Shown: positions 21,401 through 64,000 of the stretch, piece by piece
Layout of the letters: each line of letters begins with the position of its first letter
How positions within the stretch are numbered: position 1 is the stretch's first letter
IMG/VR virus record: IMGVR_UViG_3300021960_000043
Coordinates: 31,232 to 95,231 of that record
Reading direction: 5' to 3' (one strand)
DNA: 64,000 bases
Origin: a virus
The notes under the pieces: model-generated
Databases searched by the model: none
What the model saw: only the letters and a program-made list of their open reading frames with translations
Told to the model about the DNA's origin: nothing
Position numbers and translations under genes: made by a program

Positions 21401-24400
21401 TTGTATGAAGAATACGGTTGGGAACACTTTGATGAAGAATCAGGTGAGAGTAAGATTGGTGGTTTCAACACCAACAGTTTAGATTCTGCTTACGAACTAC
21501 ATGACAGGATGCTTTTATTCCATGTGTGTAAAGTCGGTGTTGGACACACTCATCGTTACCCAACTGCTTATGCACACGCTGTTACAAATACTGTGGGTGG
21601 TGGTGTTGTTAATCAGGCTCTAACTGTATCTTCTTTCTCTAGCGGTACGTTAACAGCGAGTGCTACAATAGATACAACAATTTTTGCTGCTGACTTCGGC
21701 ACTAAAGAAGAAGATGATAACAGGCGTTACATTAGAGTATACAACGCTAGTGGTGAAAGCGGTCTAGCATCCTACACAGGTGTTAGTGGAACTACGTTTA
21801 CAACAGTCAAAGGGGATGCAAACTTCGTATCACTTGTAGCGAAAACCGACACACTAACGATAGTGCCATCCTATCCTATTCCAGCGGGCTCTGCTAGATT
21901 CTATGCAGCAAACAGATTACGCGACCACGCAGAAGTGAGTGGTAACTCTCCTGATATGGCACACACAAAATACGTTGACGGTAGTGAAACGCCATATCAA
22001 AGATACTCAAAACCAATAATGACACCTATGGCTTATCCTAGAATGGGGCATCACTATGTCAATGCAACACAACCTATGCTACCCGGTCATTGGGCGCACC
22101 CTGCATATCAATCACTTTACAAGAAACACAGGTTTGAACAATCGGTAAACATTGGAAGAAAAGACAGTAAGACAATGAAAGACGCTGTTGTTGCATCATC
22201 TGAAGAAGTACCTGTAAAGGCTGATTTATCAATAGGAGACAGCCTTAACCCTGTGGAAGCAGAAGTTGTGTTTGGCTCTCTAAACGCTGCACCGAGTCCA
22301 CCATCCGATTTACATGGCGGTGCGTTCACACTAATGTTTGAAACATCTGTGAAGTGGGATGGTTACGGTGTGTTAGCAAGTTTGGGTAATGCTGGTGTTA
22401 TCAATAAAGCAGGTGGACATAGGATTGTGTTGGCCGCCGCTGCTAACTATACACTAGCAAATCATTTCCCTGACCCATCGGAAGTCGGTGCTTACCAAAT
22501 AGTCATACAACCAAACATGTTTAGGGGGCAATTCGGCGGCGTTATAGAAAGTGAGAGTTATGCATTTACAGGTCAACAAGTAAACACAGTAATTGGTATT
22601 AAAAAATACGATAGTGAGTTTGGTGGTTTAGTGTTAATACTAGCAAAAGCGACACAATTTGATTGTAGAGGTTGTGAAGTATTCGTAAATGAGTTGATGT
22701 TAGACGTATCTCCTGATTTTGGTAGTCAATTTACAAAAATACCACCTCTATTACTTTACAATTCATATGGTGTTAACTTAAATGAAACCCCATCGTTCAC
22801 TAGAAGGAACTTCCCATACTCCCCAATGATGGTGAAGTCAACACCTTCACACACACTTAACGTGCCGTGGTGGTCTATATTGTTTGGAAAGATAGATAGT
22901 AGCACAGAATTAATTACAGATAATTCAAATTACATGGGATTGTCTCAATATGCACCTCATAATTATGAAGTGTTTGCAAAAAGTACCTATGGAAGTGTCG
23001 GACATATATTAGGAATGCAAGGGCATAATACAAAATACCCAAATATATATTCAAGTATATTAGAAAATACATCTCCAATTGCAAAAAGTATAGTAGCAAC
23101 TAAGACAAGTAATGGTGAGTTTACTGTAAATGATGGTAGTGGATTTCCCGCTAATCCTCAATTTGGACAAGAAATATACTATACAGCAGCAAATGGTAGG
23201 GTTTATTCTACTACATATACCCGCACAGGGTATGCAACAGACGGTATTAATTTAAGAAATACCTTTAATGTAACTAATAGTAGTCAATTTTATTCTAATT
23301 TAACTACAGGTGTTACAATATATCTAAGTACAAATTATAATTCATATACTTCTAAGCAATATAGTAATGATAAAACTATATCTAATTATGCAAAAACAAT
23401 TAGTACATTATCTTCAGGTAGTAGAGATACAAATACATTACACCCGCCTGATGCATTCTTATGTTTATGGAGTCATAATTTAGGTAGACCTATGACATAT
23501 TTCTCAGATACTAGAAGTGCTTGGGATAGTCAACCATCAGTTCAAGCAAGATACAACGCTGTGCCTGAGCATTATGAAACAATACATTATCATTCTGCTA
23601 ATTATCAAATGAGTTTTGGCCCATTTAGTTTTATGATGAAAGCACAAAAAGCATCTAATGGTGATGGAACGGTCAATACCATAGATAACGACCTTAATAC
23701 TTATGATATATCATCAGGTATTTATGGCGCTACTCTATATGGTGGTTATTGGCCTTGTGGTAGTAGAGGTGGCCCACAAGTTAGTTGTTTGGATAGTTAT
23801 ACACAAAGCAGCGTTTCTTGGGCGTTACCGGGTTTTGCATCTAATGTGACAATGAATTGGGAAGATGAAGGTTGGAATAGTCTTAACAACATATACACAA
23901 GAACAACAGGTCTTACCACAAGAATTAGTAATGATACAGTTAGAAGAAACTTCGGCTATAGAGTTGGATTAAAACAAGCATACAACCGCCCTGCTTGGGG
24001 CATTATACCTGCTCGCGGCGCTTTAGAAAAAACCGCCACAGGTTCTGCATACAACACTACTAGTTACGATTCAGGGCCGATAGTGCAAATAGAAACACAT
24101 GGTAATCTTTCATCCAAATATAATGGGATTTTAGGCCGTTTAAGCAACTTTACAGGTATGTTAAACTCAGATGTGCAAGGTGAACAAGTGCGTTACGCAC
24201 AAGGCACAAGGATGACTAGACCGTTTGGTGTGCCTGTAAGAACACTATCTAACAAGAGTACAGTTGAAAGAGATTGGTGGGGTGATGTAGAAGGTTTGGA
24301 AATCACAGATTTGGCGTTAGCATCCAAACATTACCTAGTAGATTGGTGGGGTAACGATAGGGGTGAAGATGTGAGAAAATCACCTGTGCGTGGATTCGGT

Positions 24401-25867
24401 ATTAGACCTGCTTGGGATTGCGGTAACGCATACAAAGAAGGCACTAACACACCGTTTGATAGAGTGTGGAATAGTGGCTCTCCGTTATTCAATGTGAAGA
24501 ACATACTCAACAGCAGCGGTCAAGTTAGCATCACTAACAGTAAAACAATACCGCGTTTTGGCGGTGTTGTAAATGATGCAAATAACGATAGTAGTAGCAC
24601 CTTAGTGGATGTGTTTGCACCATTCCATTCTTTGAGAGTGGGTGATATGGGTAACGGTAGAGGTGTTAGATACCCGACTTTCTTCAACCAATGTGTGTAT
24701 ACCGATGTTAGTCAGGCTGTGGTTAACACAGGTTTGGTTCTAAGCAAGCACACATCTGAACCGTTGTTTGGTGAGGGTTTGTTACGCCCCCGTAACGCTG
24801 TACTGCAAGCCGATGAAGTCAAGAGAGGTATAAGCAATTCACTCAATTTATCAGATGATGGTTTGTTGAAACCCGAAGCAACGGTCAGTAGTAGAACAGA
24901 AACAATAAGCGGAAGTTCACAACACGTTGATGCAATCAGTAGAACAAGCCCAAGAATCGGTATTGATGCACCGTTGTTTGACACAACCGAAGAAAACTTT
25001 GTTGCTCTAAACAGCGAAGCACATAGTCTACATACAGATAGAAACGTAGGTCAAAGAGTTGTGTTGCAAAACGCATTCAAGAGAAACAGTAACAGCACAA
25101 CTAACGATTTCATCACACCTACGTCTTTCACTAGACAACCGGGTGGCTCTCCACAATCAGCAATATTGAGATTTAGCCACACTAACGTATTCCGTAGTTA
25201 TGGCGGTTCTTACATCTTAGAAGCAAAGAATTATTCGACTATAGTTGATGATAGTGGTTGGGGTAGAGACAACATAGCATCACCTAGTAAATCAAGTAAT
25301 CCTTATCAAAACTCAGTTAAGAAAAACAACAATCGAGCAAACAATGAAACTGATAAGTCAGTAAGATTCTTACTAAGACCGATTAGAGTGTTGGATAATA
25401 AACACGTTGAATTGTATAGAATGAACGACCAATTACATTCTGATAGTCCTCAAGAAGTTGACACGGAGAAATCTTACTACGCTGTCACATCAGGTAACAA
25501 ATATGGGTTGTTTAACTATGAAGTAGATACACCTTCCACATCATCATTCTATGTGGGTGGTACAGCAGGTGCAAATGCAAACGGGCCGTATTATCCTGTG
25601 GTGTTGTTTGATGATGCTTCTTTCACAAATACTCGTTCAACAGGTCCAACAATACCAACTAGTGAATCTTCAAACTTCACCACAAATGTCAAACAAACTG
25701 TTGCTAGACTTATTGTAACAGAAAACACATTACAACATCACCGTTCTGATTCTGTAAGAAAAGGTGATTTCACAGTCCAACCAAGATTCTCTCAAACGCT
25801 GCATCCTAAAGGACACAAAGGAGATGTAAGTTTCAACACAGACGACCACACAGGTGATGCAACATGA
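9461..25867 (+). CDS. Giant virion/tail-tip protein (~5,470 aa) with N-terminal LamG/concanavalin-like domain; probable ATA start at 9461 (ORF track starts at GTG 9524)
   Basis: 16.4-kb uninterrupted ORF; AFFFDGISDSIVVP...HVVATFYG..IEIYVNG...IFIGG...FRGVIESL LamG motifs; S/T/G-rich. Confidence 0.85.
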   Translation: MTLIGTSNHAFFFDGISDSIVVPQGYFSSIGNKNIDSEHDIRSLLNAKAKGGIESVTSGLYSRHIAIESWLMPDFGGVVVEKRNQFSLKVGEVHEAAPIVFTVSLLNKGRVEEHTIETGYHDGSRYVGAIYPKTESSGIFNTQPSDLNRNHRELIHVVATFYGNKIEIYVNGILMAHKTLNNPDYILNVSEENIFIGGKGGEFRGVIESLHLAANFRPQMINPSVPLKGEDTLLLYRFEEPITVFDDVFKLTSSASSGATTINIGTTAAAKLATLLKGVSVTSGTIDFTQSPFSSGNYKVIQSTSSGITKHDVAHVPYNLLLRPGGYDYTTKKPNGSPPERVRLKSINVDTGVLTIASIHLDFNTANNGARGLLHVHTTDSRLVVVGADLLIDSGTGKPYQPPHYSSRAIDRTGQMVIDESTYEQHGFVYSSRMALSTTDTDNPYAATWPTTISTDFSIGHSGRHINNHVEGHHYLRKFPKANEEILDSQSDGSADLISAIYDVPLDGMKEQLSINSKVDLYKEIGDYTVIDFVNSSTVSSIYSNYELTSSPGSGVQEIIAIGGSGFNYTPFLLKSPVISPTATPNENTRSHHLRPSKESRVALLHVPVLASTYNLAPYVQIHYNAIDLTGASMNSSNSSVPLLMVEKMIPSGTTVIAEGVFLFETIKTALNSGDLTLYAPGGCILLDSGENANARDLLEVHALSSDSSEGYDADTLLDESNTPPNLTPYVGDTLVNTPPSIITDSTSKTTQHDSSFHRMMFETVKSTKSLGDYSDYKTMDVVATNSSAEPDTIVTSSSSPVFESFDIIDNVSIADTHADTMLIVQPSQRSRFYQLKNVKSQRNTLDNPNIISLHYLLSRGRLRSVDETKEDEGASYTTIQAIGLQNSLSGRNVSFTGSGSNDSHIVKEIEPNAPVVSVTLGGVGQGAVDTKPTFLESEFSREPYSTRRDYVVTAIKYDATNKRIYVNPINNNSANMKSWGTFGFPKAGKIYFEDGSHAKYDFKASTYFEFSTATAGSSDFVSGGREYTEIYQLLQSRNLLSGVTSSTTGDLSITAVISSEPDFGVESQIEDGTTVNDRMFHSLNDVSQDYQLGTQYASTRALVEIPFFANQFFDNESVGTLVDGDNSFKIHLDATNTAHTYNPSPVGRRPKSVEQTDREALSAYAHAIENNTYISSAKVLSYDGTITITVDDANIFPDANSSDIGTDFRNIGGNGQVLRNRRAFTKTGEWVVYTDVDYSANTLTVTDGDYFSSVNFFNELENNEGDLRLYVGQTLPTELIEPIGSDKSTPSADFESRSEYYHDQASMMTQGGNVDYGLRQYVSAIEIKAGPESNPHAEKVTTKRAKGDIQSIRSFGASDVNTVVVSLSPDDLLLFPSLGNRSIDDFTLGTGELFYEATIDYNGTDYKFHYYGHLEEINNYDNTGAAAVSSDIAKNSIVLVYYTSGTYPTATPTATSGLDWVDFIGSEVKLTGRKRRVFFDEYVNNATGSVLQFENEKNPLYSELIANTKFSSGLVWASTSSKTITVTNTTTSKSLNDYFDMNFKEGDLLFFKYSGSISSVNKDEIGYLGVVDYVTGGTSITLKANVPAWMREETTAQIGVAVNDFNDFDAVLNSSWLHPYCNGGLRQGDTVWANMSYSNPHAMEGLFSKSRGIHNEGLVWKGFNGGEGSLDATNPRDSIPMENFLIGDTCIETARNLAQHINKTVEENYKSLGLNDVITADSFIVGKKYKIVSTGDTTFTSIGAIDNEVNTTFTATGVGSGTGTATQLDAPTVAFVDPYLAGENHARVLLYDAEHDREYIAFQDIHMQVQSSAETTKIGWDRNVVEGTNTSSTDLVKRLPEINGAAAHGYTTQIDVANGYPSQNKFIRSTQQSKFIESAYAHDLANKQTDDLIYSTLYDDTVRQNNFSRLYGKAHGHHVHVGLSITGNADGYAYSFSTPLRNNESVASWKIANSYHVLNRKLTNGFIDGLSKNISDSLRDRGTFFDTPDGTRVIPAFLCLKGIRAESLDLSDARMKLLPQWTQMDFVRRLTISTGEVAESESVVDVESAVNEIVRKINQYGALQARLSNGASAHDPSPFWDSDKAFANQDRGSHMGYLRAHIGRSVEDRQGNQGHTIVIHSTVPGATGRNFCVWLDNSTSQTSYNPQFLVGHGGRWRNFWALPEEKQGENMHPAPMPLDKNGRPFAPITTLRQYIQSDESGEDVLSVADFGASKNTDLLALSDVLSGKNHNSVNPDSFDLEASATIVEGLKTGTAAIGRVNFGGLVATGVPGFSPKAGLYGFGKRGDTTFANRYGVSDIADNDYTSHISTSSLDEENIGSQNIYGLQLKDHKNNTYGVRYIYSKLGRSFSNENTILPDTFRDEVQVYFDDSSNEEGGFTIGKHMRGTGDATGRLSSSLTASDWRGNRWNAVPSPNLGVKLSFVVSGNNVTVDDGNGSGTGYITPYTSSDFTHPDKLGYLGFPKENGVFQTTKVASGSTEGDVTSYEYRIGDTFYNCTNAPATGDYIVSPTMNWTTLVTDELLAAVTAFAINSSFNSNNDVIDYIPFDCTSMYAADGRTFGEHGVRRDAIRIKSSKQISKMFSASTHKDFGIQAAHLEFGEVRKAEVDTDGNWTFGTSRAPSNTQVDTGRSVDCGYIPSTILRVKTKFCGPNSNTVTPIIVGSDNKPINTSRWKKNLSGEDYVDVSGDKILPKIDNPIVRTDVSQSSHWNHQHVILTNDMYHFLKPATDYTSSDSSASHIQPFGERKNIYINKDTYVTAEAFVGDNTTHTLNNTIRWTANSEINWPSSVVDAFLHLHLSQEFDGIRSLGSVLSEPIVHFKGGKSSPDHSVPLFFGGGFSGVVLDVNDGSMNDYSDFYTHPYSNGPTGTAGIQNANEISTSFAMLDCNAIFSFFPGAALCNQHRGSPLPPVFNKQNVLSTDLDRGGTLCDTNGVVKAKPVPLVLRFPHPTARYEDYKNDVDNKTTYLVFGPGQAFPFHNERTTSNGETTNPTEPHPGRVVTTGNGWNKVPYYDDRFHNQINNKDTGNSWKAYRPRLKSNYLAEAMYHWRCVINWESPAGYSLGRTHRQYPSHGRNYGQMIDVDTTYDNRTQPLGYTPFIGYGIATAADTVFHMDGGFHPGGHWMDEIITFNPPKQTTEKISVSGYSEINPTAFRVGAAMVTAYIDWTQTTNLATTDVDTEYIVVDGTRCQNGEELASVISSAINSFPGKGALKSIGGTHHPSMGTSNRQDRYGWVDVANPNFTDSTCDTTSGDATVTMDSTAELFVSMSVSGTGIPSGATISSITNSTTFELSANATASNTNTTLVFGTVNSSITTMGDMWIESAETTDQDMLNNLPASGWLRASTTTSPAYACYYMKQVIPGSGSNFKARFYFAPNQFRGSVSSTADKKTLRGFFHDNGAVTPATDDKLWVWSKTGVIRFNNENASTRDHMTQVHFSGIVDAIDRTKPIGAVGWHGERYSYLNSLKVGTEGYAAGLGAYHPFLNFTPYGTASTVMNVYGSLPLIAPLTDSPESGAIINDGETTVATRKSYISTPYTSNTFTTAAASLRNYDYTDPKNTTQRSVKPPNYVFSYANTDTNSVMEDSLHHPQGVYSSAFLVVSYESELSMVAKHDRDGVDAFGDWLYAKHGTSADISDGGTTKWDERFHGQDRFIAPANAGPNVEALIVDGTQVPQGTVGSNWIDSLFPPASGDFVHLHSAVSNDLSLHNAVPGFKATGDLLYDLDHSVGSFNLQASGVERNVSEDYHSSTYTSLLHGDANKFWMSDINGYQTYKNSPVKNFTVENVVWKRMDGGNLSLPAINARGMGAVPFVTRVKNNTAYLTGEKIYGNVRFSFETTNSVMMPTIEAQELKQPGLPNYKVNNVLQIPNEEIQFQEITVVDDSGKEHTIEGGSPFGTVIRCFDVKRGKPSLANSGEAPNLAVRLPNPDSIPGNIVVRSGFDPIQAYQNETLGAGGMQHPGKGSTRLGELFERTTQHNPVNHPLYEEYGWEHFDEESGESKIGGFNTNSLDSAYELHDRMLLFHVCKVGVGHTHRYPTAYAHAVTNTVGGGVVNQALTVSSFSSGTLTASATIDTTIFAADFGTKEEDDNRRYIRVYNASGESGLASYTGVSGTTFTTVKGDANFVSLVAKTDTLTIVPSYPIPAGSARFYAANRLRDHAEVSGNSPDMAHTKYVDGSETPYQRYSKPIMTPMAYPRMGHHYVNATQPMLPGHWAHPAYQSLYKKHRFEQSVNIGRKDSKTMKDAVVASSEEVPVKADLSIGDSLNPVEAEVVFGSLNAAPSPPSDLHGGAFTLMFETSVKWDGYGVLASLGNAGVINKAGGHRIVLAAAANYTLANHFPDPSEVGAYQIVIQPNMFRGQFGGVIESESYAFTGQQVNTVIGIKKYDSEFGGLVLILAKATQFDCRGCEVFVNELMLDVSPDFGSQFTKIPPLLLYNSYGVNLNETPSFTRRNFPYSPMMVKSTPSHTLNVPWWSILFGKIDSSTELITDNSNYMGLSQYAPHNYEVFAKSTYGSVGHILGMQGHNTKYPNIYSSILENTSPIAKSIVATKTSNGEFTVNDGSGFPANPQFGQEIYYTAANGRVYSTTYTRTGYATDGINLRNTFNVTNSSQFYSNLTTGVTIYLSTNYNSYTSKQYSNDKTISNYAKTISTLSSGSRDTNTLHPPDAFLCLWSHNLGRPMTYFSDTRSAWDSQPSVQARYNAVPEHYETIHYHSANYQMSFGPFSFMMKAQKASNGDGTVNTIDNDLNTYDISSGIYGATLYGGYWPCGSRGGPQVSCLDSYTQSSVSWALPGFASNVTMNWEDEGWNSLNNIYTRTTGLTTRISNDTVRRNFGYRVGLKQAYNRPAWGIIPARGALEKTATGSAYNTTSYDSGPIVQIETHGNLSSKYNGILGRLSNFTGMLNSDVQGEQVRYAQGTRMTRPFGVPVRTLSNKSTVERDWWGDVEGLEITDLALASKHYLVDWWGNDRGEDVRKSPVRGFGIRPAWDCGNAYKEGTNTPFDRVWNSGSPLFNVKNILNSSGQVSITNSKTIPRFGGVVNDANNDSSSTLVDVFAPFHSLRVGDMGNGRGVRYPTFFNQCVYTDVSQAVVNTGLVLSKHTSEPLFGEGLLRPRNAVLQADEVKRGISNSLNLSDDGLLKPEATVSSRTETISGSSQHVDAISRTSPRIGIDAPLFDTTEENFVALNSEAHSLHTDRNVGQRVVLQNAFKRNSNSTTNDFITPTSFTRQPGGSPQSAILRFSHTNVFRSYGGSYILEAKNYSTIVDDSGWGRDNIASPSKSSNPYQNSVKKNNNRANNETDKSVRFLLRPIRVLDNKHVELYRMNDQLHSDSPQEVDTEKSYYAVTSGNKYGLFNYEVDTPSTSSFYVGGTAGANANGPYYPVVLFDDASFTNTRSTGPTIPTSESSNFTTNVKQTVARLIVTENTLQHHRSDSVRKGDFTVQPRFSQTLHPKGHKGDVSFNTDDHTGDAT

Positions 25868-57398: not shown

Positions 57399-57797
57399 TC
57401 ACTCTTCCTCCTGTTCACAGTAAGCAATCATAGCACTACAAGCCCAATTTGGAATGCTTGTGTTCATACCTTCTAACCATAAAGAATTAGTTTTTACAGT
57501 CGGCCCACTATTGTATGTAATTGTATTGTTGAAGTTCCTCAATACATCTATGTTGTGAGCATCATCACTCTCCATGTGTTTATCTATCAACTCTTCGTTA
57601 AACGGACTAGCCCAATAAACAAAGAAACGGTCAATTGCTTCTTCGTTTGATAGTTTGTCTGTTGATACACCACAAACATCCACACGCATTCTTTCATTCG
57701 TTTTCATTCGTTTAGTAGGTATATATGCCTTATATTCATCTCTTATCGCTATTTTTCTTTCATTCCATTTCAATTTTTCTTTTATCTCTTCATTCAT
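57399..57797 (-). CDS. Hypothetical protein
   Basis: ORF track; GAGGTGA RBS. Confidence 0.65.
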   Translation of the reverse strand: MNEEIKEKLKWNERKIAIRDEYKAYIPTKRMKTNERMRVDVCGVSTDKLSNEEAIDRFFVYWASPFNEELIDKHMESDDAHNIDVLRNFNNTITYNSGPTVKTNSLWLEGMNTSIPNWACSAMIAYCEQEEE

Positions 57798-58516
57798 TCT
57801 TCCTCACCTCTATCATTCACTATCATCTCACAATGTTGTCCTATCATCCACTCAGGTATTTTCTCACCATCGAGTGTGAAACCCAACGTCTTGTAGTTGG
57901 AAGCATCATACTCACCCAACTCAATTAACTCAGCCAACTTCCCTCTTGTGTGTGCTTGATATATCACTCCCTCATGTAAGACTCTATGCAAAGCCTCTGC
58001 ACCATACAATAGTGAGTAATCCTGTGGATTGACTATTACTTCTTCATCTGTCTCAGGACATCTCAAAGGCACAGCCCAATGATATAACTCAGTTATATCT
58101 CCATCCTCACTCAACACTTCTTGTGTGTGTACAATCTTTGGGAAGTATTTCAAACCATCAATCTCAGATAGTGGGAAACCACTAGAGGTTCTCCATGAAG
58201 CCACAATTGTGTTATTGTAATCTTCATTCATCTTATCCATATCTTCTTCATTCAATGGTAAATCATCCCACTGTGCATCTTCATCTGTGAAACTGTACCC
58301 TAAGTCAAAAAGCAACATCTTCAATCCTGTTACGTTTTTCATAGGTATGCTGTAGTTTACACATCTAACAAGGCTGACCTTTTTATCTTCAACCTTCTTG
58401 ACAATGAAACCACCACCTTCAGGAAACCACACCGAGTCTATTCTCATACCCTCAAATGTATCTTTCACATGCTGCATCATACTTTTATTCATCCAATTTA
58501 TTTCTCCTTCAATCAT
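57794..58516 (-). CDS. Hypothetical protein
   Basis: 240-aa ORF in the array. Confidence 0.7.
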   Translation of the reverse strand: MIEGEINWMNKSMMQHVKDTFEGMRIDSVWFPEGGGFIVKKVEDKKVSLVRCVNYSIPMKNVTGLKMLLFDLGYSFTDEDAQWDDLPLNEEDMDKMNEDYNNTIVASWRTSSGFPLSEIDGLKYFPKIVHTQEVLSEDGDITELYHWAVPLRCPETDEEVIVNPQDYSLLYGAEALHRVLHEGVIYQAHTRGKLAELIELGEYDASNYKTLGFTLDGEKIPEWMIGQHCEMIVNDRGEEE

Positions 58517-58519
58517 TTT

Positions 58520-58783
58520 TTACACTTCCGTTATATTCAATTTTAATGTGTTGCATTTTTTACACACAACTAATTCTTTTACTCCATCTTCATCGTTTTC
58601 ACATGGTAAGTTGATGGTATTCTCACCACATGTATTACAGCCGTTAATTTCAACCACACAATCAAGTGGTGTGAAAGGATAACCCTCAATCATAAAAGTC
58701 ATAGTATGAGTATGCACATTGTATGTGTCTTTTTCCATAGTAATATTTCCATGTTGGTCTACGCTATCCGGTGTTAGTATCAT
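58520..58783 (-). CDS. Small Zn-ribbon protein (CNTC...CKKC)
   Basis: GAGGTGA RBS. Confidence 0.65.
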   Translation of the reverse strand: MILTPDSVDQHGNITMEKDTYNVHTHTMTFMIEGYPFTPLDCVVEINGCNTCGENTINLPCENDEDGVKELVVCKKCNTLKLNITEV

Positions 58784-59002
58784 TCAATCACCTCTACTGT
58801 ATTCCAATAACATATCACCATCATCACCAGCATACTCCATGAGTATCTTGTATGCACAATCTAATTTGTGATATGCTTCTATCGCTTCGTTAGCATTTTC
58901 ATACTTCACAAACTCATCAAACTCACCTAATGGTGGTTCTGTTTTATCATACCAAATGTGTATTTCATACACAGGTTTTGTTTCGCTTAAGTCTATACTC
59001 AT
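58784..59002 (-). CDS. Hypothetical acidic protein
   Basis: ORF track. Confidence 0.6.
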   Translation of the reverse strand: MSIDLSETKPVYEIHIWYDKTEPPLGEFDEFVKYENANEAIEAYHKLDCAYKILMEYAGDDGDMLLEYSRGD

Positions 59003-59166
59003 TCAATCAACTCCTTTTCATTCCTCAACCTGACTGTTTCATAGATAGCAACTTCTGCCTTTATTGCATCGAAGGCCGCTACTAAATCACCGATATTTGA
59101 GGCTTCCTTTTTGTCAAATCTCTTGATGATATTTCTAATTCTTCGCATTCTATAATCCACACTCAT
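58999..59166 (-). CDS. 55-aa micro-protein (MSVDYRMRRI...)
   Basis: Hand-translated; ATGA overlaps. Confidence 0.65.
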   Translation of the reverse strand: MSVDYRMRRIRNIIKRFDKKEASNIGDLVAAFDAIKAEVAIYETVRLRNEKELIE

Positions 59167-59486
59167 TCTTCTTCACCCCATTCATCTGCACTAATCCACG
59201 GTAGCCTTACACCTTCCCATTCCATGTATGCAACTTCTTTTTCCCATACATAACCCGCTAATTCTTCATCACCAAGAATCCAATCTAACCTTTCTTGTAG
59301 TCGCTTGACTTCTGCTAGGAGAAGTGGTGCGTCTGCTAACAACGCAACATCTTGTCGCATAACATTCATCGCAACTTCACCTTCACTTGACATAACAGTA
59401 TCAGTTTCACCATATTCTTCCATATTACCGAGTTCAATTGTCCACGGCGCAGGTGTATGTCCTTCGTATTTGTCTGTATCAATCAT
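59163..59486 (-). CDS. Phage-type small protein (MIDTDKYEGHTPAPW...LLADAPLLLAEVKRL)
   Basis: HTPxPW...D..L.A.AP.LL.EV.RL pattern typical of phage early proteins. Confidence 0.7.
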   Translation of the reverse strand: MIDTDKYEGHTPAPWTIELGNMEEYGETDTVMSSEGEVAMNVMRQDVALLADAPLLLAEVKRLQERLDWILGDEELAGYVWEKEVAYMEWEGVRLPWISADEWGEEE

Positions 59487-59703
59487 TCAATCACCTCTAC
59501 ATCATCTCCATATACATGATATCTAAAAGCCGAGTTTAATTCCTCATCATAAAGTTGGTGTAACCATTCCTTAGTAAGTCTTAGTTCTTCACGCAACCGC
59601 TTGACTTCATTTGTCTTTTGGAAAGCAAGTTGTTCCCAATGGTTGATTATCTCAATCAAATCATGTTGGGTCATTGTTTCGTATTTGTCTGTATCAATCA
59701 TTC
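59463..59703. repeat. 26-bp direct repeat TTCGTATTTGTCTGTATCAATCATTC (59463-59488, 59678-59703)
   Basis: Read directly; encodes the shared MIDTDKYE start. Confidence 0.92.
59483..59701 (-). CDS. Paralogous small protein (MIDTDKYE...EVKRL)
   Basis: Shares the N-terminus and EVKRL with its neighbour. Confidence 0.7.
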   Translation of the reverse strand: MIDTDKYETMTQHDLIEIINHWEQLAFQKTNEVKRLREELRLTKEWLHQLYDEELNSAFRYHVYGDDVEVIE

Positions 59704-59874
59704 TTCTTCCTCCGCAAAAATGCCTGTTGCTTTCTCATAAGCAGTATAGATGTCGTTGTCAGGATATAGATGTCGATGTGTCTCTTCTAACCATTCAATG
59801 TAAGTATGGTTATCGTCATCCTGTTGCTGAATCCTTTCAAGCATCGTTCTAGCCTGTTGTATAATAGTAGGCAT
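59698..59874 (-). CDS. 58-aa micro-protein (MPTIIQQARTM...)
   Basis: Hand-translated; coupled at both ends. Confidence 0.6.
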   Translation of the reverse strand: MPTIIQQARTMLERIQQQDDDNHTYIEWLEETHRHLYPDNDIYTAYEKATGIFAEEEE

Positions 59875-60306
59875 TTATTCTTCATCCCCCATAGGTGTAA
59901 TAGGTAGACCTTGTTGTTCAACTAACATATCAACACTTCTTAGATACTTCACTAAATCAATAATGTCTTTCTTACTCATAGCAACTGAACACACCATACC
60001 TTGTGGATGGTTATGTTCAGAACCATGTATCAACAACTGCACACTAGGCTGTCCACCAATAGTATGTTCAGGATAAACTAAGGCTGACATACCCACATAG
60101 TTCTTACCTGTATTCGCTGCTGATTCAAACTCAGGGTCTTGTGAACGTAAGTATTGACTCACTTTATCTTCACAAGGTATTCTATCAGTATACCCGTACT
60201 TCCTATTACTTAACTCAGATTGAGTATCACACAAAACTTGTATGTGCATCATACCACTATCGTAGTTACATTTCACTTGCATTCTATTCATTTTATCATC
60301 TTCCAT
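59875..60306 (-). CDS. Hypothetical protein
   Basis: ORF track. Confidence 0.65.
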   Translation of the reverse strand: MEDDKMNRMQVKCNYDSGMMHIQVLCDTQSELSNRKYGYTDRIPCEDKVSQYLRSQDPEFESAANTGKNYVGMSALVYPEHTIGGQPSVQLLIHGSEHNHPQGMVCSVAMSKKDIIDLVKYLRSVDMLVEQQGLPITPMGDEE

Positions 60307-61502
60307 TCTTTTTCACTTCCTTTTTTTTTACCACTGTCTTTAAGGTACGGGCCTATCATTTCCCGTTGTTCCTTAAAGTAATCCGTATCACTAAGTGGTT
60401 TCATAGTGATACTTCCACCTTCTTCTATTACCTCTATGAAAGCGGCTGACTTCCCTAGAATCTTTTGTTTCTCATAATCTAATTTGATTCCCAAATCTTT
60501 TGCTATACAATACTTACATTCATTATGATGCATTTCTAATATCGTGTATTCTTCTCCACATGAAACACACAAACCTTCTTTCTTGTAATCATTGATGTCA
60601 TGTACAGGTGATAACATACCAAATATTTCTTCTAATGACTCAACATTATCATGGTACATCTTATTTTCAAACCATATGAATCTATTATATTCATCGTGTG
60701 CTTCTAACATATCACACAAGACATAACCTCTTTGAACGAAATCATCTTTTGGTTTACTCTGACTAACATAATCTCCTAAGTTAGATTGCTTACCACGTTT
60801 CTTAAACTCCACACCATCAATAGCCTTTCTCTCCCTCTTTCGACTCTTACCTTTCTTACCTTTCTTACCTTTCTTCTTATCTGTTTCAGCCAACTCATCG
60901 TAGATACTTTGCATAGAAACATCATCCCACGTAATTTTGTTGTTACTTTGAATAAACAAAGTATCTCCAACAGGTATGTCAATCATGTCTGCAATATATT
61001 GTTGTTGAGCAAAGTTCTCTACTGCATGTGTGCAATAACTATCTCTGATGTAATTAACCAACTCCGCTACATCCTTCCAAGTTTGGTCTTTTGTAGGTAT
61101 CATCAGGTGAGCAAGGATAGCCAACTGCACACCTGTTCTACCATGTCCGCCCATACATGATGTAGAGACAGTCTTTACATTCTTAGTTTTGAAATCATCA
61201 ACCAACGCTATCCAAAAGTCCTTACCTAAATTAGCAGGTATACTGAAATCAGGCCAATCGATACCTATGATGTGTGGTATTTTTCCTGTGTCAATCTTAT
61301 CAGTACAAGACCAACCATCAGGCAACACATCTCTCTTTATCTTCATAGGCATAACATCAACAGGCCCAATTGCTACATCAGGATAAGGGTTCATTCTTGT
61401 CCATGCACCTTGCCTAGATGTACCGCCAGCATACACTTTGATACCTTCTGCTTCAAACACAAGTGGGTTTCCTGTATGACAATTCATCTTACTAACCATC
61501 AT
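60288..61502 (-). CDS. Cys-based (PTP/dual-specificity) phosphatase with C-terminal extension
   Basis: WPDF acid loop, CMGGHGRTG (CX5R), AVE...Q..Y. Confidence 0.88.
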   Translation of the reverse strand: MMVSKMNCHTGNPLVFEAEGIKVYAGGTSRQGAWTRMNPYPDVAIGPVDVMPMKIKRDVLPDGWSCTDKIDTGKIPHIIGIDWPDFSIPANLGKDFWIALVDDFKTKNVKTVSTSCMGGHGRTGVQLAILAHLMIPTKDQTWKDVAELVNYIRDSYCTHAVENFAQQQYIADMIDIPVGDTLFIQSNNKITWDDVSMQSIYDELAETDKKKGKKGKKGKSRKRERKAIDGVEFKKRGKQSNLGDYVSQSKPKDDFVQRGYVLCDMLEAHDEYNRFIWFENKMYHDNVESLEEIFGMLSPVHDINDYKKEGLCVSCGEEYTILEMHHNECKYCIAKDLGIKLDYEKQKILGKSAAFIEVIEEGGSITMKPLSDTDYFKEQREMIGPYLKDSGKKKGSEKEWKMIK

Positions 61503-63880
61503 TCATCACCATCCTTGTTCAACTCATTAAAGTCTACCATCCATTCAGTATCTTTTCCTTTCACCGCTTGTATCTTCAACATCTTTTTCATCATAGCCAC
61601 CAACACATCAAACATTGGGTCGTTCTTTTCTATACCATTCCAAGCATTAACAAACATCTGAGCATCAACCTCATCGTACTTTTTATTCTGTATCAAACCA
61701 CACACATGATATGTCAACTGAGAAGATTTACCCTCAGGTAGTGGTAAGAATACAGATGGTGATACAGGATTAAAGAACATACTTGTGTAATCGAAACCAC
61801 CAATTGCATTAGCCAAGATAACTATATCCAACTCTTTACATATTGCACAATCTTCAGAACCACAAGGTATGAACGCAGGTGTTTTACCATTAGAATACTT
61901 ACTAGGTATGTGTCTAGCATCTTGTGGTAGTTTCTTCACCACATCTCTCAGATACTCAGGCACATCAAACGAACTACCCATGAAGTTGTTTCTCCAATAG
62001 GCAGGGTTCTTTCCCTTCAAGAAACCAAACAACTCTCCCCAATCACATGATGTGTCTTTCAATCCTTCATTGTCCTCGGTGAACATCTTTTCTGCTAGTT
62101 CCCATGTTCTCATCATAGAAGCCAATGCCCTCTTATCATGTGGGAAAGCACCTGTTCCATAGTCCAATGCTGTATGATGTAGGAACTTGTTGAACAAACT
62201 ACCATTGTTGTGTTGCCATGTTTCACAGGAATTAACCGCTAATGATACTGCCTTAAGATTCTCTTCACTCATATCATTCACAAAAGTATCTATGATACCT
62301 GCTACTTCAGCAGCCTTCAAAGCACACTCTTGCCAATTCTTTCCACCAAAACCATTCTTCCATTTTATGTTATCATTATTGAAATATTTAGCACACCATT
62401 CAAGTGCGGCCTTCATATCAGAATATGATGGATTCTGATTCTCTACACTAGCAAAGTAATGTTGCCTGTTCTTCAAACTGAATCCTTCAAAGTGGTCGCC
62501 ACACAACAGATGTAATACAGTGGGAACTTCGATGTAACCATTTTGTGCGATGGTAGGATTGATGTAAATATGCCTCATCTCTCCAAGACATACTGATAAG
62601 GCTGCTTTCACAACCCAACCTGCAAACGCACCTGCTAACACAGCACATTTAGTGCCGTTCCAATTCTGACCTTTCCATTGATGGAAGAAATGAGAGAACC
62701 AACCATGTTGTCTTTGATACCTAGTTTGAGATAAGGTTAGCCCAACATAGAATGCTTGTTGCATGTCACTATGGTAAGGGTTGTATGGTTGAGGGATGAT
62801 ATGTATTGCTGTATTAGCAACCCAACCTGCTGAACCTTCAATCCATGTCTCTCCAATCTCAGGACTCCCTACGATGTAAGGTATGCCATGTCCTCTTGCA
62901 TGAGCGCATATGTGAGATAACATAGAGCCTTCAGGGTGTGATATAACAAACCCCTCAGGGCATAGTTCTCTTGTGATGTTCTCTTCTAACCATGCTACTT
63001 CTTCCAATCCTTCAGCCACCCACACTTGATTAACCTCAACCTTTCCTTGTGGTATCATACCATTGATGACTGATAATACTTCATTACCCTCCACATCTAA
63101 ATATGTAAATGGTGGCATCAAAGGTGCATGTTCAGGCGCACCTCTCACTTGTGTTAGATAGATGTTTGAGTGCATGTAAGCCTCAGTCCATGTCAGCCAT
63201 TTCTCACCTCTATCAAACACAAACTCTAACTCGTAGTTATCCTTTTGCACTTGACCCAAACCTTCAAAGTATTCTGCCACATTAGCATCTTCATTTCTAG
63301 GCTTCAAAGCAAAATATAGTTGTCTACCATGTGAAGCAGTAACCCCATCATGCCCTTCACCAACAACAGCATACTGATTAGGTGCAAGCACCATACTTGA
63401 TGTAGCATCAATGAAAGGTTGTAGTAACATACATCCATTAGGGTCTTGCTCTTTCATTATTGTAGCAAGCCTTCTCCATTCACCCATGTATGTTTCTCTA
63501 GTTACTTTGATAGATTCAATCACACCATGTCTAGCAACTTCAGGACAAGCACGTATGAAAGCATACTCATTAACTAACTCATCTTCTATGTAAGTAAGTG
63601 CTGCTGCTGCAAGAGCATCGTCATCTTCCAACAACAATAACTCAATTGGTAAACTAGGATAAACACTACTCTTCTGTCTATCCTTAATCAAACTAGCCGC
63701 TTTCTGCGACATCACCTTAGCCAATCTATCAGGCGTTAGAGTGCCGTAATCGCTTTTGTTAGTCTTGATGGCTTCCACCACTTCTGCACTTTCATTAGCG
63801 ACATCATCCCATAACCCTTGCATTATATCATTCAACATATCATTCATCATATCATTTACATTTTCTTCTTCGTCTTGCAT
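61499..63880 (-). CDS. PEP-synthase/PPDK-type ATP-grasp plus phospho-His swivel domain plus unknown C-terminal domain
   Basis: FIRAC...HG..ES, LQPFI, GEGHDGVT, ELEF...YLTQVR; then EGSMLSHICAHARGHGIPYIVG; start at 63880 follows the upstream stop and AGGAG. Confidence 0.8.
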   Translation of the reverse strand: MQDEEENVNDMMNDMLNDIMQGLWDDVANESAEVVEAIKTNKSDYGTLTPDRLAKVMSQKAASLIKDRQKSSVYPSLPIELLLLEDDDALAAAALTYIEDELVNEYAFIRACPEVARHGVIESIKVTRETYMGEWRRLATIMKEQDPNGCMLLQPFIDATSSMVLAPNQYAVVGEGHDGVTASHGRQLYFALKPRNEDANVAEYFEGLGQVQKDNYELEFVFDRGEKWLTWTEAYMHSNIYLTQVRGAPEHAPLMPPFTYLDVEGNEVLSVINGMIPQGKVEVNQVWVAEGLEEVAWLEENITRELCPEGFVISHPEGSMLSHICAHARGHGIPYIVGSPEIGETWIEGSAGWVANTAIHIIPQPYNPYHSDMQQAFYVGLTLSQTRYQRQHGWFSHFFHQWKGQNWNGTKCAVLAGAFAGWVVKAALSVCLGEMRHIYINPTIAQNGYIEVPTVLHLLCGDHFEGFSLKNRQHYFASVENQNPSYSDMKAALEWCAKYFNNDNIKWKNGFGGKNWQECALKAAEVAGIIDTFVNDMSEENLKAVSLAVNSCETWQHNNGSLFNKFLHHTALDYGTGAFPHDKRALASMMRTWELAEKMFTEDNEGLKDTSCDWGELFGFLKGKNPAYWRNNFMGSSFDVPEYLRDVVKKLPQDARHIPSKYSNGKTPAFIPCGSEDCAICKELDIVILANAIGGFDYTSMFFNPVSPSVFLPLPEGKSSQLTYHVCGLIQNKKYDEVDAQMFVNAWNGIEKNDPMFDVLVAMMKKMLKIQAVKGKDTEWMVDFNELNKDGDE

Positions 63881-63881
63881 T

Positions 63882-64000
63882 TTATTCATCTCCTTGTAAC
63901 ATTTCATAGTCATCTCCTAACACCCATACACTAGGCCCACCAATTTCTAGGTCGAGTTCATCAAAGTGATGTGGTGGAATATCTACTTCATCTAGACCCA
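63882..64000 (-). CDS. 3' end of an upstream gene (partial; ...GLDEVDIPPHHFDELDLEIGGPSVWVLGDDYEMLQGDE*)
   Basis: Open frame to TAA at 63882-63884. Confidence 0.6.
   Translation of the reverse strand, partial: GLDEVDIPPHHFDELDLEIGGPSVWVLGDDYEMLQGDE

What the first reader, a model, noticed from the sequence alone, without database searches (positions are those of the whole stretch)
60288..63880. Viral dikinase-type phosphotransferase with an unrecognised acceptor domain, coupled to a CX5R phosphatase: candidate phospho-writer/eraser system
Seen: the ~793-aa ORF has a PPDK/PEP-synthase-like ATP-grasp region (~63140-63560) followed directly by a swivelling phospho-His domain (GSMLSHICAHARGHGIP, His codon at 62912-62914). 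It lacks the pyruvate-binding TIM barrel. Instead it has a ~400-aa mostly helical domain with GFGGKNW and QHNNGSLFNKF motifs and a C..C..C cluster. It overlaps (ATGA) the start of a gene with an intact WPD/CX5R phosphatase site. Established: in this family (PEP synthase, rifampin phosphotransferase, glucan water dikinase) the beta-phosphate of ATP passes via His to an acceptor chosen by the third domain. Inference: the virus encodes a reversible phosphorylation module acting on an unknown substrate (host protein, nucleotide or defence signal, DNA/RNA end, or glycan), probably for host takeover or counter-defence rather than central metabolism.
Basis: partly seen in the sequence, partly recalled or inferred. 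Interest (0 to 1): 0.88.

Follow-up and report, generated by a model that had tools for sequence, protein, structure and literature searches.

The report
Viral dikinase-phosphatase module, target unknown
A marine archaeal-type virus encodes an ATP-driven "swinging-histidine" phosphate-transfer enzyme whose usual pyruvate-binding part is replaced by an undescribed helical domain, always followed by a cysteine phosphatase gene; the pair is widespread in uncultured viruses, occurs split into separate genes in cultured phages (where it is mislabelled as the metabolic enzyme PPDK), and its target is unknown.

Summary
An 804-aa ORF (61502-63913, minus strand) overlaps by ATGA a 404-aa ORF (60291-61502).

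- **Fold of the N-half:** the predicted fold of residues ~40-370 matches rifampin phosphotransferase (Z 13.9) and PPDK (Z 11.2). The match spans the ATP-grasp and the swivelling His domain, and His334 is invariant.
- **C-terminal half:** residues 375-804 are all-helical with no match in the PDB. They are neither a TIM barrel nor a rifampin-binding domain.
- **Phosphatase:** the partner is an intact classical-PTP-like Cys phosphatase with a basic, zinc-ribbon tail.
- **Linkage:** the phosphatase follows in 35/35 close relatives and lies within two genes in 37/42 distant ones. In distant viruses these two are the only conserved genes.
- **Spread:** the first half of the helical domain (Cdom1, 379-625) defines at least 828 protein clusters.
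- **Cultured phages:** Vibrio, Stenotrophomonas, Rhizobium and Rhodobacter phages carry Cdom1 as a separate gene between two phosphatases, downstream of a barrel-less "PPDK".

The dikinase architecture and the linkage are supported. "Reversible writer/eraser" and the substrate remain inference. I found no support for PEP synthesis, a heal-and-seal repair system or a 5-hydroxymethyl-pyrimidine route.

This scan has found the same module before on other DNA (27 notes, at least 23 genomes). This is the magrovirus-type fused form.

The parts
61502..63913 (-). Dikinase-like phosphotransferase gene (P0001, 804 aa; stop codon at 61499-61501; alternative start Met12 at 63880)
   Evidence: 80 homologs of ~800 aa
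63014..63748 (-). ATP-grasp nucleotide-binding domain (residues ~56-300; invariant K71, R121, P124, H129-G130, S134, G190, T192, E230, Q255, R257)
   Evidence: Predicted fold matches RPH 5hv3 (Z 13.9), PPDK 1kbl (Z 11.2) and PEP synthase 2ols (Z 10.5); Foldseek top hits are PPDK and many ATP-grasp enzymes; invariants. Not detected by the Pfam PPDK_N HMM.
62780..63013 (-). Swivelling phospho-histidine domain (residues ~301-378; motif GSMLSH334ICAHARGHGIPYIV)
   Evidence: Weak Pfam PEP-utilizers hit at residues 328-355 (E 0.0097; 11 of 60 homologs); the structural alignment to PPDK chain 5-508 and to RPH runs through this domain; H334 is invariant
62912..62914 (-). Codon of His334, the predicted phospho-carrier histidine
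   Evidence: aligned with the catalytic His motif of canonical phage PPDKs
62039..62779 (-). Cdom1: conserved helical domain of unknown fold (residues 379-625; invariant H411, E445, R447, R483, W518, G523-G524, H568-N569, K576; motifs GEMRH, YGGxxW, HNNGxLFNK). Predicted acceptor/catalytic domain.
   Evidence: No PDB fold match; 828 cluster representatives at E<1e-3; co-occurs with grasp+swivel in 110 of 145 top hits; standalone homolog in cultured phages; soluble, no TM segments
61502..62038 (-). Cdom2: lineage-specific helical C-terminal extension (residues 626-804) with a probable Zn site (H668, C684, C689, C692; Cys codons at 61838-61864)
   Evidence: Present only in close, magrovirus-type relatives; Cys residues invariant or nearly invariant
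60948..61502 (-). Cys-phosphatase domain of P0002 (residues 1-185): WPD loop (D85, codon 61248-61250), P-loop C116-MGGHG-R122-TG (61137-61157), Q-loop-like HAVE..QQxYI
   Evidence: Pfam Y_phosphatase 24.4 bits, above the 20.9 cut-off; profile hits to classical receptor PTPs at E 6e-6; invariant D85, C116, R122; all 52 non-redundant partners keep CX5R[ST]
60291..60890 (-). C-terminal half of P0002 (residues ~205-404): Lys-rich linker (KKKGKKGKKGKSRKRERK), CxxC zinc-ribbon motifs, basic tail. Probable nucleic-acid- or partner-tethering module.
   Evidence: The architecture, though not the sequence, is conserved in 30 relatives; Zn-ribbon Pfam hits (Elf1-like, L37e, HVO_2753-like) in several members. 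The binding function is inferred.
59875..60306 (-). F2: 143-aa gene overlapping the end of the phosphatase gene, co-conserved with the pair in magrovirus-type relatives (invariant Q10, H21, Q23, R35, Y37, N99, H100)
   Evidence: 32 loci; no Pfam, PHROG, PDB or Atlas match

Best explanation
P0001 is a histidine-swivel ('dikinase-type') phosphotransferase. The proposed steps are: (1) the ATP-grasp domain binds ATP and phosphorylates His334 on the small swivel domain; (2) that domain swings to a second active site formed by the novel helical domain Cdom1 (E445, R447, R483, H568, N569, K576 and the YGGxxW loop); (3) the phosphate passes to an acceptor that is not pyruvate. P0002, translationally coupled to it, is an active Cys (CX5R/WPD) phosphatase acting on the same molecule, either removing that phosphate or another one on it. 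The two genes form a self-contained cassette that moves among otherwise unrelated viruses, so the target must be something the host or virus always supplies. My best guess for the target is a macromolecule, most likely nucleic acid or something bound to it (about 0.3). The reasons are the Lys-rich zinc-ribbon tail on the phosphatase, the position of the module at the head of the replication gene block here and beside the DNA polymerase in cultured phages, and the variable targeting extensions on both enzymes. What is shown: gene structure, conservation, predicted folds, linkage, and the split form in cultured phages. What is inferred: ATP use, His334 phosphorylation, Cdom1 as the acceptor site, and every statement about the target. 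The confidence given is for the enzymatic mechanism and the pairing, not for the target.
For: The fold of residues 40-370 matches RPH (Z 13.9, 278 aligned residues), PPDK (Z 11.2, chain 5-508) and PEP synthase (Z 10.5), with PPDK as the top Foldseek hit. His334, the grasp residues and the Cdom1 polar set are invariant down to 19-34% identity. Grasp, swivel and Cdom1 travel together in 110 of 145 top representatives. Rosetta-stone evidence: in cultured phages Cdom1 is a separate gene in one operon with an unambiguous PPDK_N + PEP-utilizers protein that lacks the barrel. The phosphatase is intact and linked: 35/35 close loci; 33/42 adjacent plus 4/42 within two genes in distant loci; all 52 partners keep CX5R. 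Only these two gene families are conserved in distant loci. The family is virus-borne: two scans of 185,579 species genomes gave one hit, itself a magrovirus-like contig.
Against: There is no biochemical evidence. Sequence similarity of the N-half to PPDK_N is undetectable, so the ATP-grasp assignment depends on an AlphaFold2 model. Cdom1 has no known fold, so its role as an acceptor site is an analogy with PPDK and RPH. It could instead be a regulatory domain, a docking domain or itself a phospho-acceptor. The nucleic-acid guess has only circumstantial support. No RtcB or Rnl-type ligase and no ThyA-type hydroxymethylase are present in five near-complete genomes.
Confidence: 0.6

Rival explanations
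1. Protein phospho-switch. The dikinase phosphorylates a host or viral protein (for example a Tyr or other hydroxyl, as related dikinases phosphorylate phenolic or alcoholic OH groups), and the PTP-like enzyme erases the mark. This is a true writer/eraser pair for host takeover.
For: The phosphatase profile is closest to classical protein tyrosine phosphatases, including the WPD, P- and Q-loops (Pfam Y_phosphatase in 19 of 31 partners). Kinase and phosphatase genes co-transcribed in one operon are common in bacteria (general knowledge). The small co-conserved F2 protein with an invariant Tyr37 could be a substrate or adaptor.
Against: The strictly invariant polar pocket of Cdom1 across very different viruses fits a fixed small chemical group better than a diverging protein surface. 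F2 is absent from most distant loci. No protein-docking domain is recognisable.
Confidence: 0.2
2. Small-molecule or nucleotide phosphotransferase. Cdom1 binds a metabolite, nucleotide, defence signal or antibiotic-like compound, which is phosphorylated as rifampin is by RPH. The phosphatase recycles or completes the product.
For: The closest structural relative is rifampin phosphotransferase. The invariant E/R/R/H/N/K set resembles a small-ligand phosphoryl-transfer site. The cassette is autonomous.
Against: Both enzymes carry variable targeting extensions: N-terminal extensions of 200-550 aa on long dikinases, and zinc ribbons or N-terminal extensions on the phosphatases. That is unusual for metabolite enzymes. 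An obligate phosphatase partner has no precedent in RPH-type resistance.
Confidence: 0.15
3. Nucleic-acid end-healing. The dikinase phosphorylates 5'-OH ends and the phosphatase removes 3'-phosphates, making a non-orthologous analogue of T4 polynucleotide kinase-phosphatase that counters host nucleases.
For: An obligate kinase+phosphatase pairing is the hallmark of Pnkp enzymes (general knowledge). Distant partners and the J26 phosphatase best match Pfam PTP-SAK, above its cut-off in 6 of 10 tested and at 39.5 bits in J26. From memory, not verified here, that family is named after predicted RNA-repair proteins. The phosphatase has a basic zinc-ribbon tail.
Against: No RtcB or Rnl-type RNA ligase is present in five near-complete genomes, and a bona fide DNA ligase lies near the module in only one. 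No ligase is conserved beside the pair in distant loci. Magrovirus-type partners match generic Y_phosphatase more often than PTP-SAK.
Confidence: 0.1
4. His-to-Cys phosphorelay. The 'phosphatase' is not an eraser but the next carrier. Phosphate passes from His334 via Cdom1 to Cys116 and then to the final acceptor, as in the sugar phosphotransferase system, where a PEP-utilising His enzyme ends in a Cys-phospho carrier.
For: The pair is translationally coupled and strictly adjacent. The first Gln of the classical Q-loop, which positions the hydrolytic water, is replaced by Glu in the HAVE motif. Cultured phages carry two such Cys proteins flanking Cdom1.
Against: The general-acid Asp and the following QQ are conserved, as in hydrolytic PTPs. 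There is no evidence of physical interaction.
Confidence: 0.07
5. Glucan dikinase plus glucan phosphatase, as in plant starch breakdown (GWD/PWD with SEX4/LSF2/laforin): phosphorylation and dephosphorylation together mobilise host storage polysaccharide.
For: This is the only known biological system that pairs a His-swivel dikinase with a DSP-type Cys phosphatase working in the same direction (general knowledge).
Against: No carbohydrate-binding module was found in either protein by Pfam. The phosphatase tail is basic with zinc ribbons, not a CBM. The genomic setting is replication and DNA-related.
Confidence: 0.05
6. A true PEP synthase/PPDK auxiliary metabolic gene that boosts host carbon metabolism, as phage genome papers annotate the cultured-phage homologs.
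For: Published annotations and a docking study of the J26 'PPDK' (PMC12038007; also PMC9229204, PMC10671443).
Against: The PEP/pyruvate TIM barrel is absent here and from the cultured-phage proteins, which have PPDK_N + PEP-utilizers only and no PEP-utilizers_C. The obligate linkage to Cys phosphatases and Cdom1 has no role in PEP synthesis.
Confidence: 0.03

Closest known systems
Pyruvate phosphate dikinase / PEP synthase (PEP-utilising enzymes; PDB 1KBL, 1DIK, 2OLS)
   Same: Same domain order at the front: an ATP-grasp nucleotide domain, then a swivelling His domain, with the His in a G-x-x-x-SH-x-A-x-x-AR motif. Predicted fold match Z 10.5-11.2.
   Different: There is no PEP/pyruvate TIM barrel; a helical domain of unknown fold takes its place. 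Sequence similarity is below detection for PPDK_N. The enzyme is obligately paired with a Cys phosphatase.
Rifampin phosphotransferase (RPH-Lm; PDB 5HV1/5HV2/5HV3)
   Same: Best structural match (Z 13.9, 278 residues). It is a dikinase whose third domain selects a non-pyruvate acceptor hydroxyl.
   Different: RPH has the order ATP-grasp, rifampin-binding domain, then a C-terminal His domain; here the His domain is central. No similarity of Cdom1 to the rifampin-binding domain was seen. RPH has no phosphatase partner.
Barrel-less 'PPDK' operon of cultured phages (Vibrio phages J26, Virtus, VHS1 and SIO-2; Stenotrophomonas DLP3 and DLP5; Rhizobium RHph_Y1_11; Rhodobacter RcZahn)
   Same: The same three components are present: a dikinase front end, DSP/PTP-type Cys phosphatase(s) (hhalign 94%, E 1.4e-7) and Cdom1 with the E-x-RH, YGGxxW and HNNGxFNK motifs (hhalign 89.7%, E 1.8e-6; HMM 34 bits).
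   Different: There the parts are separate genes, the dikinase front end is canonical in sequence (PPDK_N E 1e-43 to 1e-50), there are two phosphatases, and the block sits between terminase and DNA polymerase A. Here the dikinase and Cdom1 are fused, strongly diverged, and extended by Cdom2.
Glucan water dikinase with SEX4/LSF2/laforin (starch and glycogen phosphorylation cycle)
   Same: A His-swivel dikinase works together with a DSP-type Cys phosphatase on one substrate.
   Different: No carbohydrate-binding modules, no homology of the third domain, and a viral replication-gene setting.
T4 polynucleotide kinase-phosphatase (Pnkp)
   Same: An obligate kinase+phosphatase pairing in a virus, and a possible nucleic-acid target.
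   Different: Pnkp is a P-loop kinase fused to a HAD phosphatase and works with an RNA ligase. Here the folds are unrelated and no ligase is linked.

Membership tests
PPDK / PEP synthase (PEP-utilising enzymes) | N-terminal ATP-grasp nucleotide-binding domain recognisable as Pfam PPDK_N (PF01326) | tested here: not met
   No PPDK_N hit in P0001 or in 60 homologs; PF01326 finds nothing in the genome while ringing in 13 of 14 control genomes; hhalign against canonical phage PPDKs aligns only the His motif
PPDK / PEP synthase (PEP-utilising enzymes) | ATP-grasp fold followed by a swivelling His domain (three-dimensional architecture) | tested here: met
   AlphaFold2 model (pLDDT 84.6): PPDK 1kbl Z 11.2, rmsd 3.9, 266 aligned residues, model 57-369 to chain 5-508; PEP synthase 2ols Z 10.5. 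This is a predicted, not a solved, structure.
PPDK / PEP synthase (PEP-utilising enzymes) | Catalytic His in the PEP-utilizers mobile domain (PF00391) | tested here: inconclusive
   The Pfam hit scores 15.9 bits, below the 23.1 cut-off, at residues 328-355, and appears in 11 of 60 homologs. His334 is invariant and aligns with the catalytic His motif of canonical phage PPDKs, but only at E 0.11-0.2.
PPDK / PEP synthase (PEP-utilising enzymes) | C-terminal PEP/pyruvate-binding TIM barrel (PF02896) | tested here: not met
   No Pfam hit. The model of residues 375-804 is all-helical. Foldseek's best hit is E 0.27, and none of 48,161 chains reaches Z 8.
Rifampin phosphotransferase | Domain order ATP-grasp, rifampin-binding domain, C-terminal His domain | tested here: not met
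   Here the His domain (301-378) directly follows the ATP-grasp, and the unknown domain is C-terminal
Rifampin phosphotransferase | Rifampin-binding domain fold | tested here: inconclusive
   RPH chains align only over model residues 40-370, and no RPH chain appears among the matches of the C-terminal model. A missing match does not prove a different fold.
Cys-based protein tyrosine / dual-specificity phosphatases (P0002) | C-X5-R P-loop with catalytic Cys and Arg | tested here: met
   C116-MGGHG-R122-TG is invariant in 31 partners and present in all 52 non-redundant partners
Cys-based protein tyrosine / dual-specificity phosphatases (P0002) | General-acid Asp (WPD loop) and a family HMM match above cut-off | tested here: met
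   D85 is invariant. Pfam Y_phosphatase scores 24.4 bits against a 20.9 cut-off. The profile matches receptor PTPs at E 6e-6 over the WPD, P- and Q-loops.
Viral dikinase-phosphatase-Cdom1 module (unnamed; cultured-phage 'PPDK' operon) | Cdom1 with the E-x-RH, YGGxxW and HNNGxFNK motifs, associated with a His-swivel dikinase front end and an adjacent Cys phosphatase | tested here: met
   Motifs and invariant residues; linkage; homology to the J26 proteins
Polynucleotide kinase-phosphatase end-healing systems | Association with a sealing ligase | tested here: not met
   RtcB and RNA_ligase families are absent from 5 near-complete genomes. DNA ligase is above its cut-off in only 1 of 5. No ligase is conserved next to the pair.
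Glucan water dikinase / glucan phosphatase pair | Carbohydrate-binding module on the dikinase and/or the phosphatase | tested here: inconclusive
   No CBM family appears among the Pfam hits for either protein family. Undetected divergent CBMs cannot be excluded.

The most novel reading that the evidence does not exclude
The module is a virus-specific, ATP-driven system that puts a phosphate on nucleic acid (a base, sugar or end of viral or host DNA/RNA) through a His-swivel relay and a previously unseen catalytic domain. The tethered Cys phosphatase would then trim or reset the mark. This would be a new kind of nucleic-acid modification or repair chemistry shared by archaeal and bacterial viruses, and possibly the cause of the unexplained restriction resistance of phage DLP3 DNA.
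Probability: 0.2. Interest if true: 0.9.

Novelty: new variant of a known kind. Interest (0 to 1): 0.75.

Why it matters
His-swivel dikinases are a small, well-studied enzyme class in which the third domain decides what gets phosphorylated (pyruvate, rifampin, starch). This is a large branch, at least 828 clusters at 50% identity, that is almost entirely viral. It has a third domain of unknown fold and an obligate Cys-phosphatase partner, and it has no name in Pfam and no functional annotation in PHROGs.

Its members in cultured Vibrio, Stenotrophomonas, Rhizobium and Rhodobacter phages are published as the glycolytic 'auxiliary metabolic gene' PPDK. The missing barrel and the fixed partnership make that annotation very unlikely.

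Because culturable carriers exist, the question of what viruses phosphorylate with this system is directly testable. The window shows that the system also reaches viruses of marine archaea, in a fused and strongly diverged form.

Tried and rejected
- **Sequence searches of P0001:** searches against PDB sequences with the single protein and with a 60-sequence profile gave only noise.
- **PHROGs:** one unknown-function family at E 0.003 for P0001. For P0002 it gave a family labelled 'thymidylate synthase', which is a mislabel for a PTP-domain protein.
- **ESM Atlas:** no usable hit for the C-terminal domain or for F2.
- **Fold searches of the C-terminal domain:** Foldseek's best hit was E 0.27. 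The wide VIA search's best was Z 6.7, to GPCR-like helical bundles, which the tool's notes place at noise level for helical proteins. I rejected a membrane-domain reading because the standalone Cdom1 proteins have no TM-like segment.
- **Profile comparison with canonical PPDK-type proteins:** the N-half against phage G gp139, and against an alignment of five phage PPDKs, aligned only the His motif and was not significant.
- **Phage G gp139:** the best BFVD match is a canonical mini PPDK_N + swivel protein with no Cdom1 or phosphatase nearby, so it is a different family.
- **Heal-and-seal repair:** no RtcB or Rnl-type ligase.
- **5-hydroxymethyl-pyrimidine hypermodification:** no ThyA-type enzyme in 5 genomes.
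- **Cellular homologs:** two pattern scans of 185,579 species genomes gave one locus, which carries the whole magrovirus-type gene set and is probably a mis-binned viral contig; a third attempt failed for lack of a conserved stretch.
- **Cultured phages with the fused form:** none found by tblastn.
- **Tools and sources not available:** 'Relatives' cannot be drawn for a virus record. The paper that defined the SAK phosphatase domain could not be retrieved. No magrovirus paper lists the IMG/VR contigs found here.

Full report
**Observation**

The window's last 3.7 kb holds two overlapping minus-strand ORFs: 61499-63913 (804 aa, P0001) and 60288-61502 (404 aa, P0002). They are joined by an ATGA stop/start overlap.
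- GSMLSH334ICAHARGHGIP, with the His codon at 62912-62914.
- GFGGKNW (521-527) and QHNNGSLFNKF (567-577).
- The C684/C689/C692 cluster.
- In P0002, WPD (D85) and C116-MGGHG-R122-TG.

The genome is an IMG/VR virus record of 95,231 bp with CheckV completeness 89%. The gene lies 87 nt from the contig end.

**What virus**

The window encodes a family-B DNA polymerase, a clamp loader, a primase-like protein, an exonuclease, a GroEL-type chaperonin, a 5,447-aa virion protein and tail genes. The polymerase's best cultured relatives are haloarchaeal tailed viruses at about 22% identity. This gene set fits the published description of magroviruses, the viruses of Marine Group II archaea: most genes have no database matches, GroEL occurs in groups B and C, relatives carry the SNF2 helicase of group A, and a ligase-like segment is embedded in the structural module (PMC5434244). 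I could not confirm the assignment from a contig list, so it is probable rather than proven. The magrovirus papers do not mention this gene pair.

**N-terminal half**

By sequence alone the evidence is thin:
- Pfam gives only a sub-threshold PEP-utilizers hit at residues 328-355 (15.9 bits against a 23.1 cut-off), seen in 11 of 60 homologs.
- PPDK_N is not detected.
- Profiles against PDB sequences find nothing.

An AlphaFold2 model built on 60 homologs is confident (pLDDT 84.6, pTM 0.77). Foldseek ranks PPDK first (1kbl, E 3.4e-5), followed by dozens of ATP-grasp enzymes. The VIA second look aligns:
- model residues 40-369 to rifampin phosphotransferase (5hv3: Z 13.9, rmsd 4.0, 278 residues);
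- model residues 57-369 to PPDK chain residues 5-508 (Z 11.2), i.e. through both the nucleotide domain and the His domain;
- model residues 57-314 to PEP synthase (Z 10.5).

K71, R121, P124, H129-G130, S134, G190, T192, E230, Q255, R257 and H334 are invariant across the family. All of these except K71, which is only nearly invariant there, also stay invariant in members only 19-34% identical. Profile-profile comparison with canonical phage PPDK-type proteins aligns only the His motif (E 0.11-0.2). The dikinase assignment therefore rests on predicted fold, invariant residues and the context evidence below.

**C-terminal half**

Residues 375-804, folded alone (pLDDT 88.0), are entirely helical. 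Foldseek finds nothing better than E 0.27. A search of 48,161 PDB representatives that does not depend on Foldseek gives no chain with Z of 8 or more; the best is Z 6.7 to generic seven-helix bundles. The region is therefore neither the PEP/pyruvate TIM barrel nor recognisably the rifampin-binding domain.

An exhaustive profile search with this region alone found 828 cluster representatives at E<1e-3, of which 246 are below 1e-10. Local HMMs for four segments show that ATP-grasp, swivel and the first helical unit (Cdom1, residues 379-625) travel together in 110 of the top 145 hits. The second unit (Cdom2, 626-804, with the Cys cluster) is confined to close relatives. Longer proteins add N-terminal extensions of 200-550 aa.

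Cdom1 keeps E445, R447, R483, W518, G523-G524, H568-N569 and K576 invariant at 19-34% identity. I read that as a fixed catalytic pocket. Cdom1 is soluble.

**The phosphatase**

P0002 residues 1-185 pass the Pfam Y_phosphatase cut-off. As a family profile they match classical receptor PTPs (E 6e-6) across the WPD, P- and Q-loops. D85, C116 and R122 are invariant.

The C-terminal half cannot be aligned across relatives, but it always has the same make-up: a Lys-rich linker, several CxxC zinc ribbons, and often a basic tail. Distant partners best match Pfam PTP-SAK (above its cut-off in 6 of 10), while the magrovirus-type partners mostly match generic Y_phosphatase. I do not assign a subfamily.

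**Linkage**

| Set | Result |
|---|---|
| 37 IMG/VR loci with close relatives | Phosphatase directly follows on the same strand in all 35 loci that have downstream DNA |
| 32 of those loci | A 143-aa gene (F2; here 59875-60306) follows the phosphatase |
| 42 non-redundant distant members (22-28% identical, no Cdom2) | Phosphatase adjacent in 33, within two genes in 4, farther in 1, absent in 4 |
| All 52 non-redundant partners | CX5R[ST] retained |
| Distant loci | Dikinase-like gene (50 loci) and phosphatase (44 loci) are the only families found in more than 5 loci |

The pair is therefore an autonomous cassette. Other frequent neighbours in the close set are an SNF2 helicase, a DenV-like glycosylase, an ArdC-type anti-restriction protein and an unknown ~545-aa protein (F3) that is absent from this genome. 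Two scans of 185,579 prokaryote species genomes returned one locus, which carries the full magrovirus-type gene set and is probably a mis-binned viral contig.

**Cultured phages carry a split form**

A literature search found phage genome papers that mention both 'pyruvate phosphate dikinase' and 'tyrosine phosphatase'. Vibrio phage J26 has this gene order: 'PPDK' (691 aa), a small ORF, a PTP (182 aa), a 'putative membrane protein' (337 aa), a 284-aa protein, DNA polymerase A, then portal.
- The 337-aa protein is a standalone Cdom1 with the E-x-RH, FGGKPW..C and HNNGSVFNK motifs (34 bits against the distant-family HMM; hhalign 89.7%, E 1.8e-6).
- The PTP is homologous to P0002 (hhalign 94%, E 1.4e-7).
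- The same order holds in Stenotrophomonas phage DLP3, Rhodobacter phage RcZahn and Rhizobium phage RHph_Y1_11, with a second PTP after Cdom1.
- The standalone Cdom1 gene occurs in 41 cultured-phage records: 34 Vibrio, 4 Stenotrophomonas, 2 Rhizobium and 1 Rhodobacter. That closely matches the host spread reported for viral 'PPDK' in PMC12038007.
- Pfam shows these 'PPDKs' have strong PPDK_N and PEP-utilizers domains but no PEP-utilizers_C barrel.

So Cdom1 is fused to a diverged dikinase front end in the window's virus and operon-linked to a canonical one in cultured phages. This fusion/fission pattern independently supports the dikinase reading of P0001 and the functional unity of the three parts. 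The papers treat the PPDK and the PTP as separate metabolic or signalling genes.

**What it does**

The best-supported mechanism has three steps. ATP is bound by the grasp domain. His334 is phosphorylated and swings to the Cdom1 pocket. The phosphate then passes to a non-pyruvate acceptor. The Cys phosphatase acts on the same molecule. All of these steps are inferred from homology.

For the target, the variable targeting extensions on both enzymes, the basic zinc-ribbon tail, and the position at the head of the replication block here and beside the DNA polymerase in cultured phages lean towards a macromolecule, most plausibly nucleic acid.

One experimental hint exists. DLP3 virion DNA resisted all 15 restriction enzymes tested, and the modification is unidentified (PMC7326821). 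However, DLP3 also has sugar-modification genes, and no comparable data exist for the Vibrio phages.

Specific sub-hypotheses fared poorly:
- No RNA ligase, and no consistently linked DNA ligase.
- No ThyA-type hydroxymethylase.
- No carbohydrate-binding module.
- No barrel for PEP synthesis.

Rival readings that remain open are a protein phospho-switch, a small-molecule acceptor, and a His-to-Cys relay.

**Relation to earlier notes of this scan**

I had reached the reading above before a word search of the scan's notes showed 27 earlier findings, in at least 23 genomes, describing the same module with the same conclusion: not PPDK, split in cultured phages, target unknown. No look-alike of P0001 itself had been recorded. 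Two notes report relatives in uncultured bacteria. My two genome scans with magrovirus-type and distant viral queries did not find such relatives, but those notes concern a branch I did not test.

**Verdict**

The finding is real, robust and not yet described in the literature I could search. The enzyme classes are known. The third domain, the obligate pairing and the viral distribution are new. The substrate is the open question, and cultured carriers make it testable.

Noticed in passing
window 9524-25867 (+): A single 5,447-aa ORF takes a quarter of the window, between tail-tape-measure-like and tail-fibre genes. I did not analyse it.
   Followed up: no
G000:C1:26440-26694 (outside the window, inside the 1,804-aa ORF at C1:21907-27321); likewise in G001, G002 and G004: A weak DNA_ligase_A_M-like segment (E 2.7e-6, below the cut-off) sits inside a ~1,800-1,890-aa protein of the structural module in four related viral genomes. 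It may correspond to the 'ligase embedded in the structural module' described for magroviruses (PMC5434244).
   Followed up: partly
L001:5533-7293 and 25 other loci (family F3, alignment A5): A ~545-aa protein with conserved Cys/His motifs (SCGHDE; GECxW..C.HHD) and W-rich motifs lies near the module in 30 relatives but is absent from this genome. It has no Pfam, PHROG or PDB match.
   Followed up: partly
PHROG 17568; Stenotrophomonas phage DLP3 gp141 (L109:5996-6769): PHROG 17568, and separately DLP3 gp141, are labelled 'thymidylate synthase'. PHROG 17568 matches the Cys-phosphatase domain of P0002 (E 1.8e-13), and DLP3 gp141 matches DSP/PTP-type Pfam families (Tc-R-P, PTP-SAK). The label looks like a propagated mis-annotation. 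J26's homolog of the second phosphatase is labelled 'pyruvate decarboxylase' and Virtus's 'transporter'.
   Followed up: partly
window 57399-63913 (-): Many consecutive small genes end in an acidic tail (…EQEEE, …RGEEE, …WGEEE, …MGDEE, …KDGDE) just before the next start codon. The GAGGAG-type codons probably double as the ribosome-binding site of the downstream, overlapping gene.
   Followed up: no
L105 (NZQM01000111.1, 30-kb contig of 'MAG: Parvibaculum sp. EAC60'): This contig, binned as an alphaproteobacterium, carries the full magrovirus-type set (dikinase-like gene, phosphatase, F2 and F3). It is probably a mis-binned viral contig.
   Followed up: partly
L107:5881-6978 (Bacillus phage G gp139): A 365-aa canonical PPDK_N + swivel-His 'mini-dikinase' with no third domain at all and no phosphatase nearby. 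It is a separate, also unexplained, viral use of the dikinase front end.
   Followed up: partly
L072-L074 (IMG/VR contigs): Proteins of 454-513 aa match the grasp and swivel HMMs but lack Cdom1 and have no adjacent phosphatase. They are possibly another barrel-less dikinase branch.
   Followed up: no
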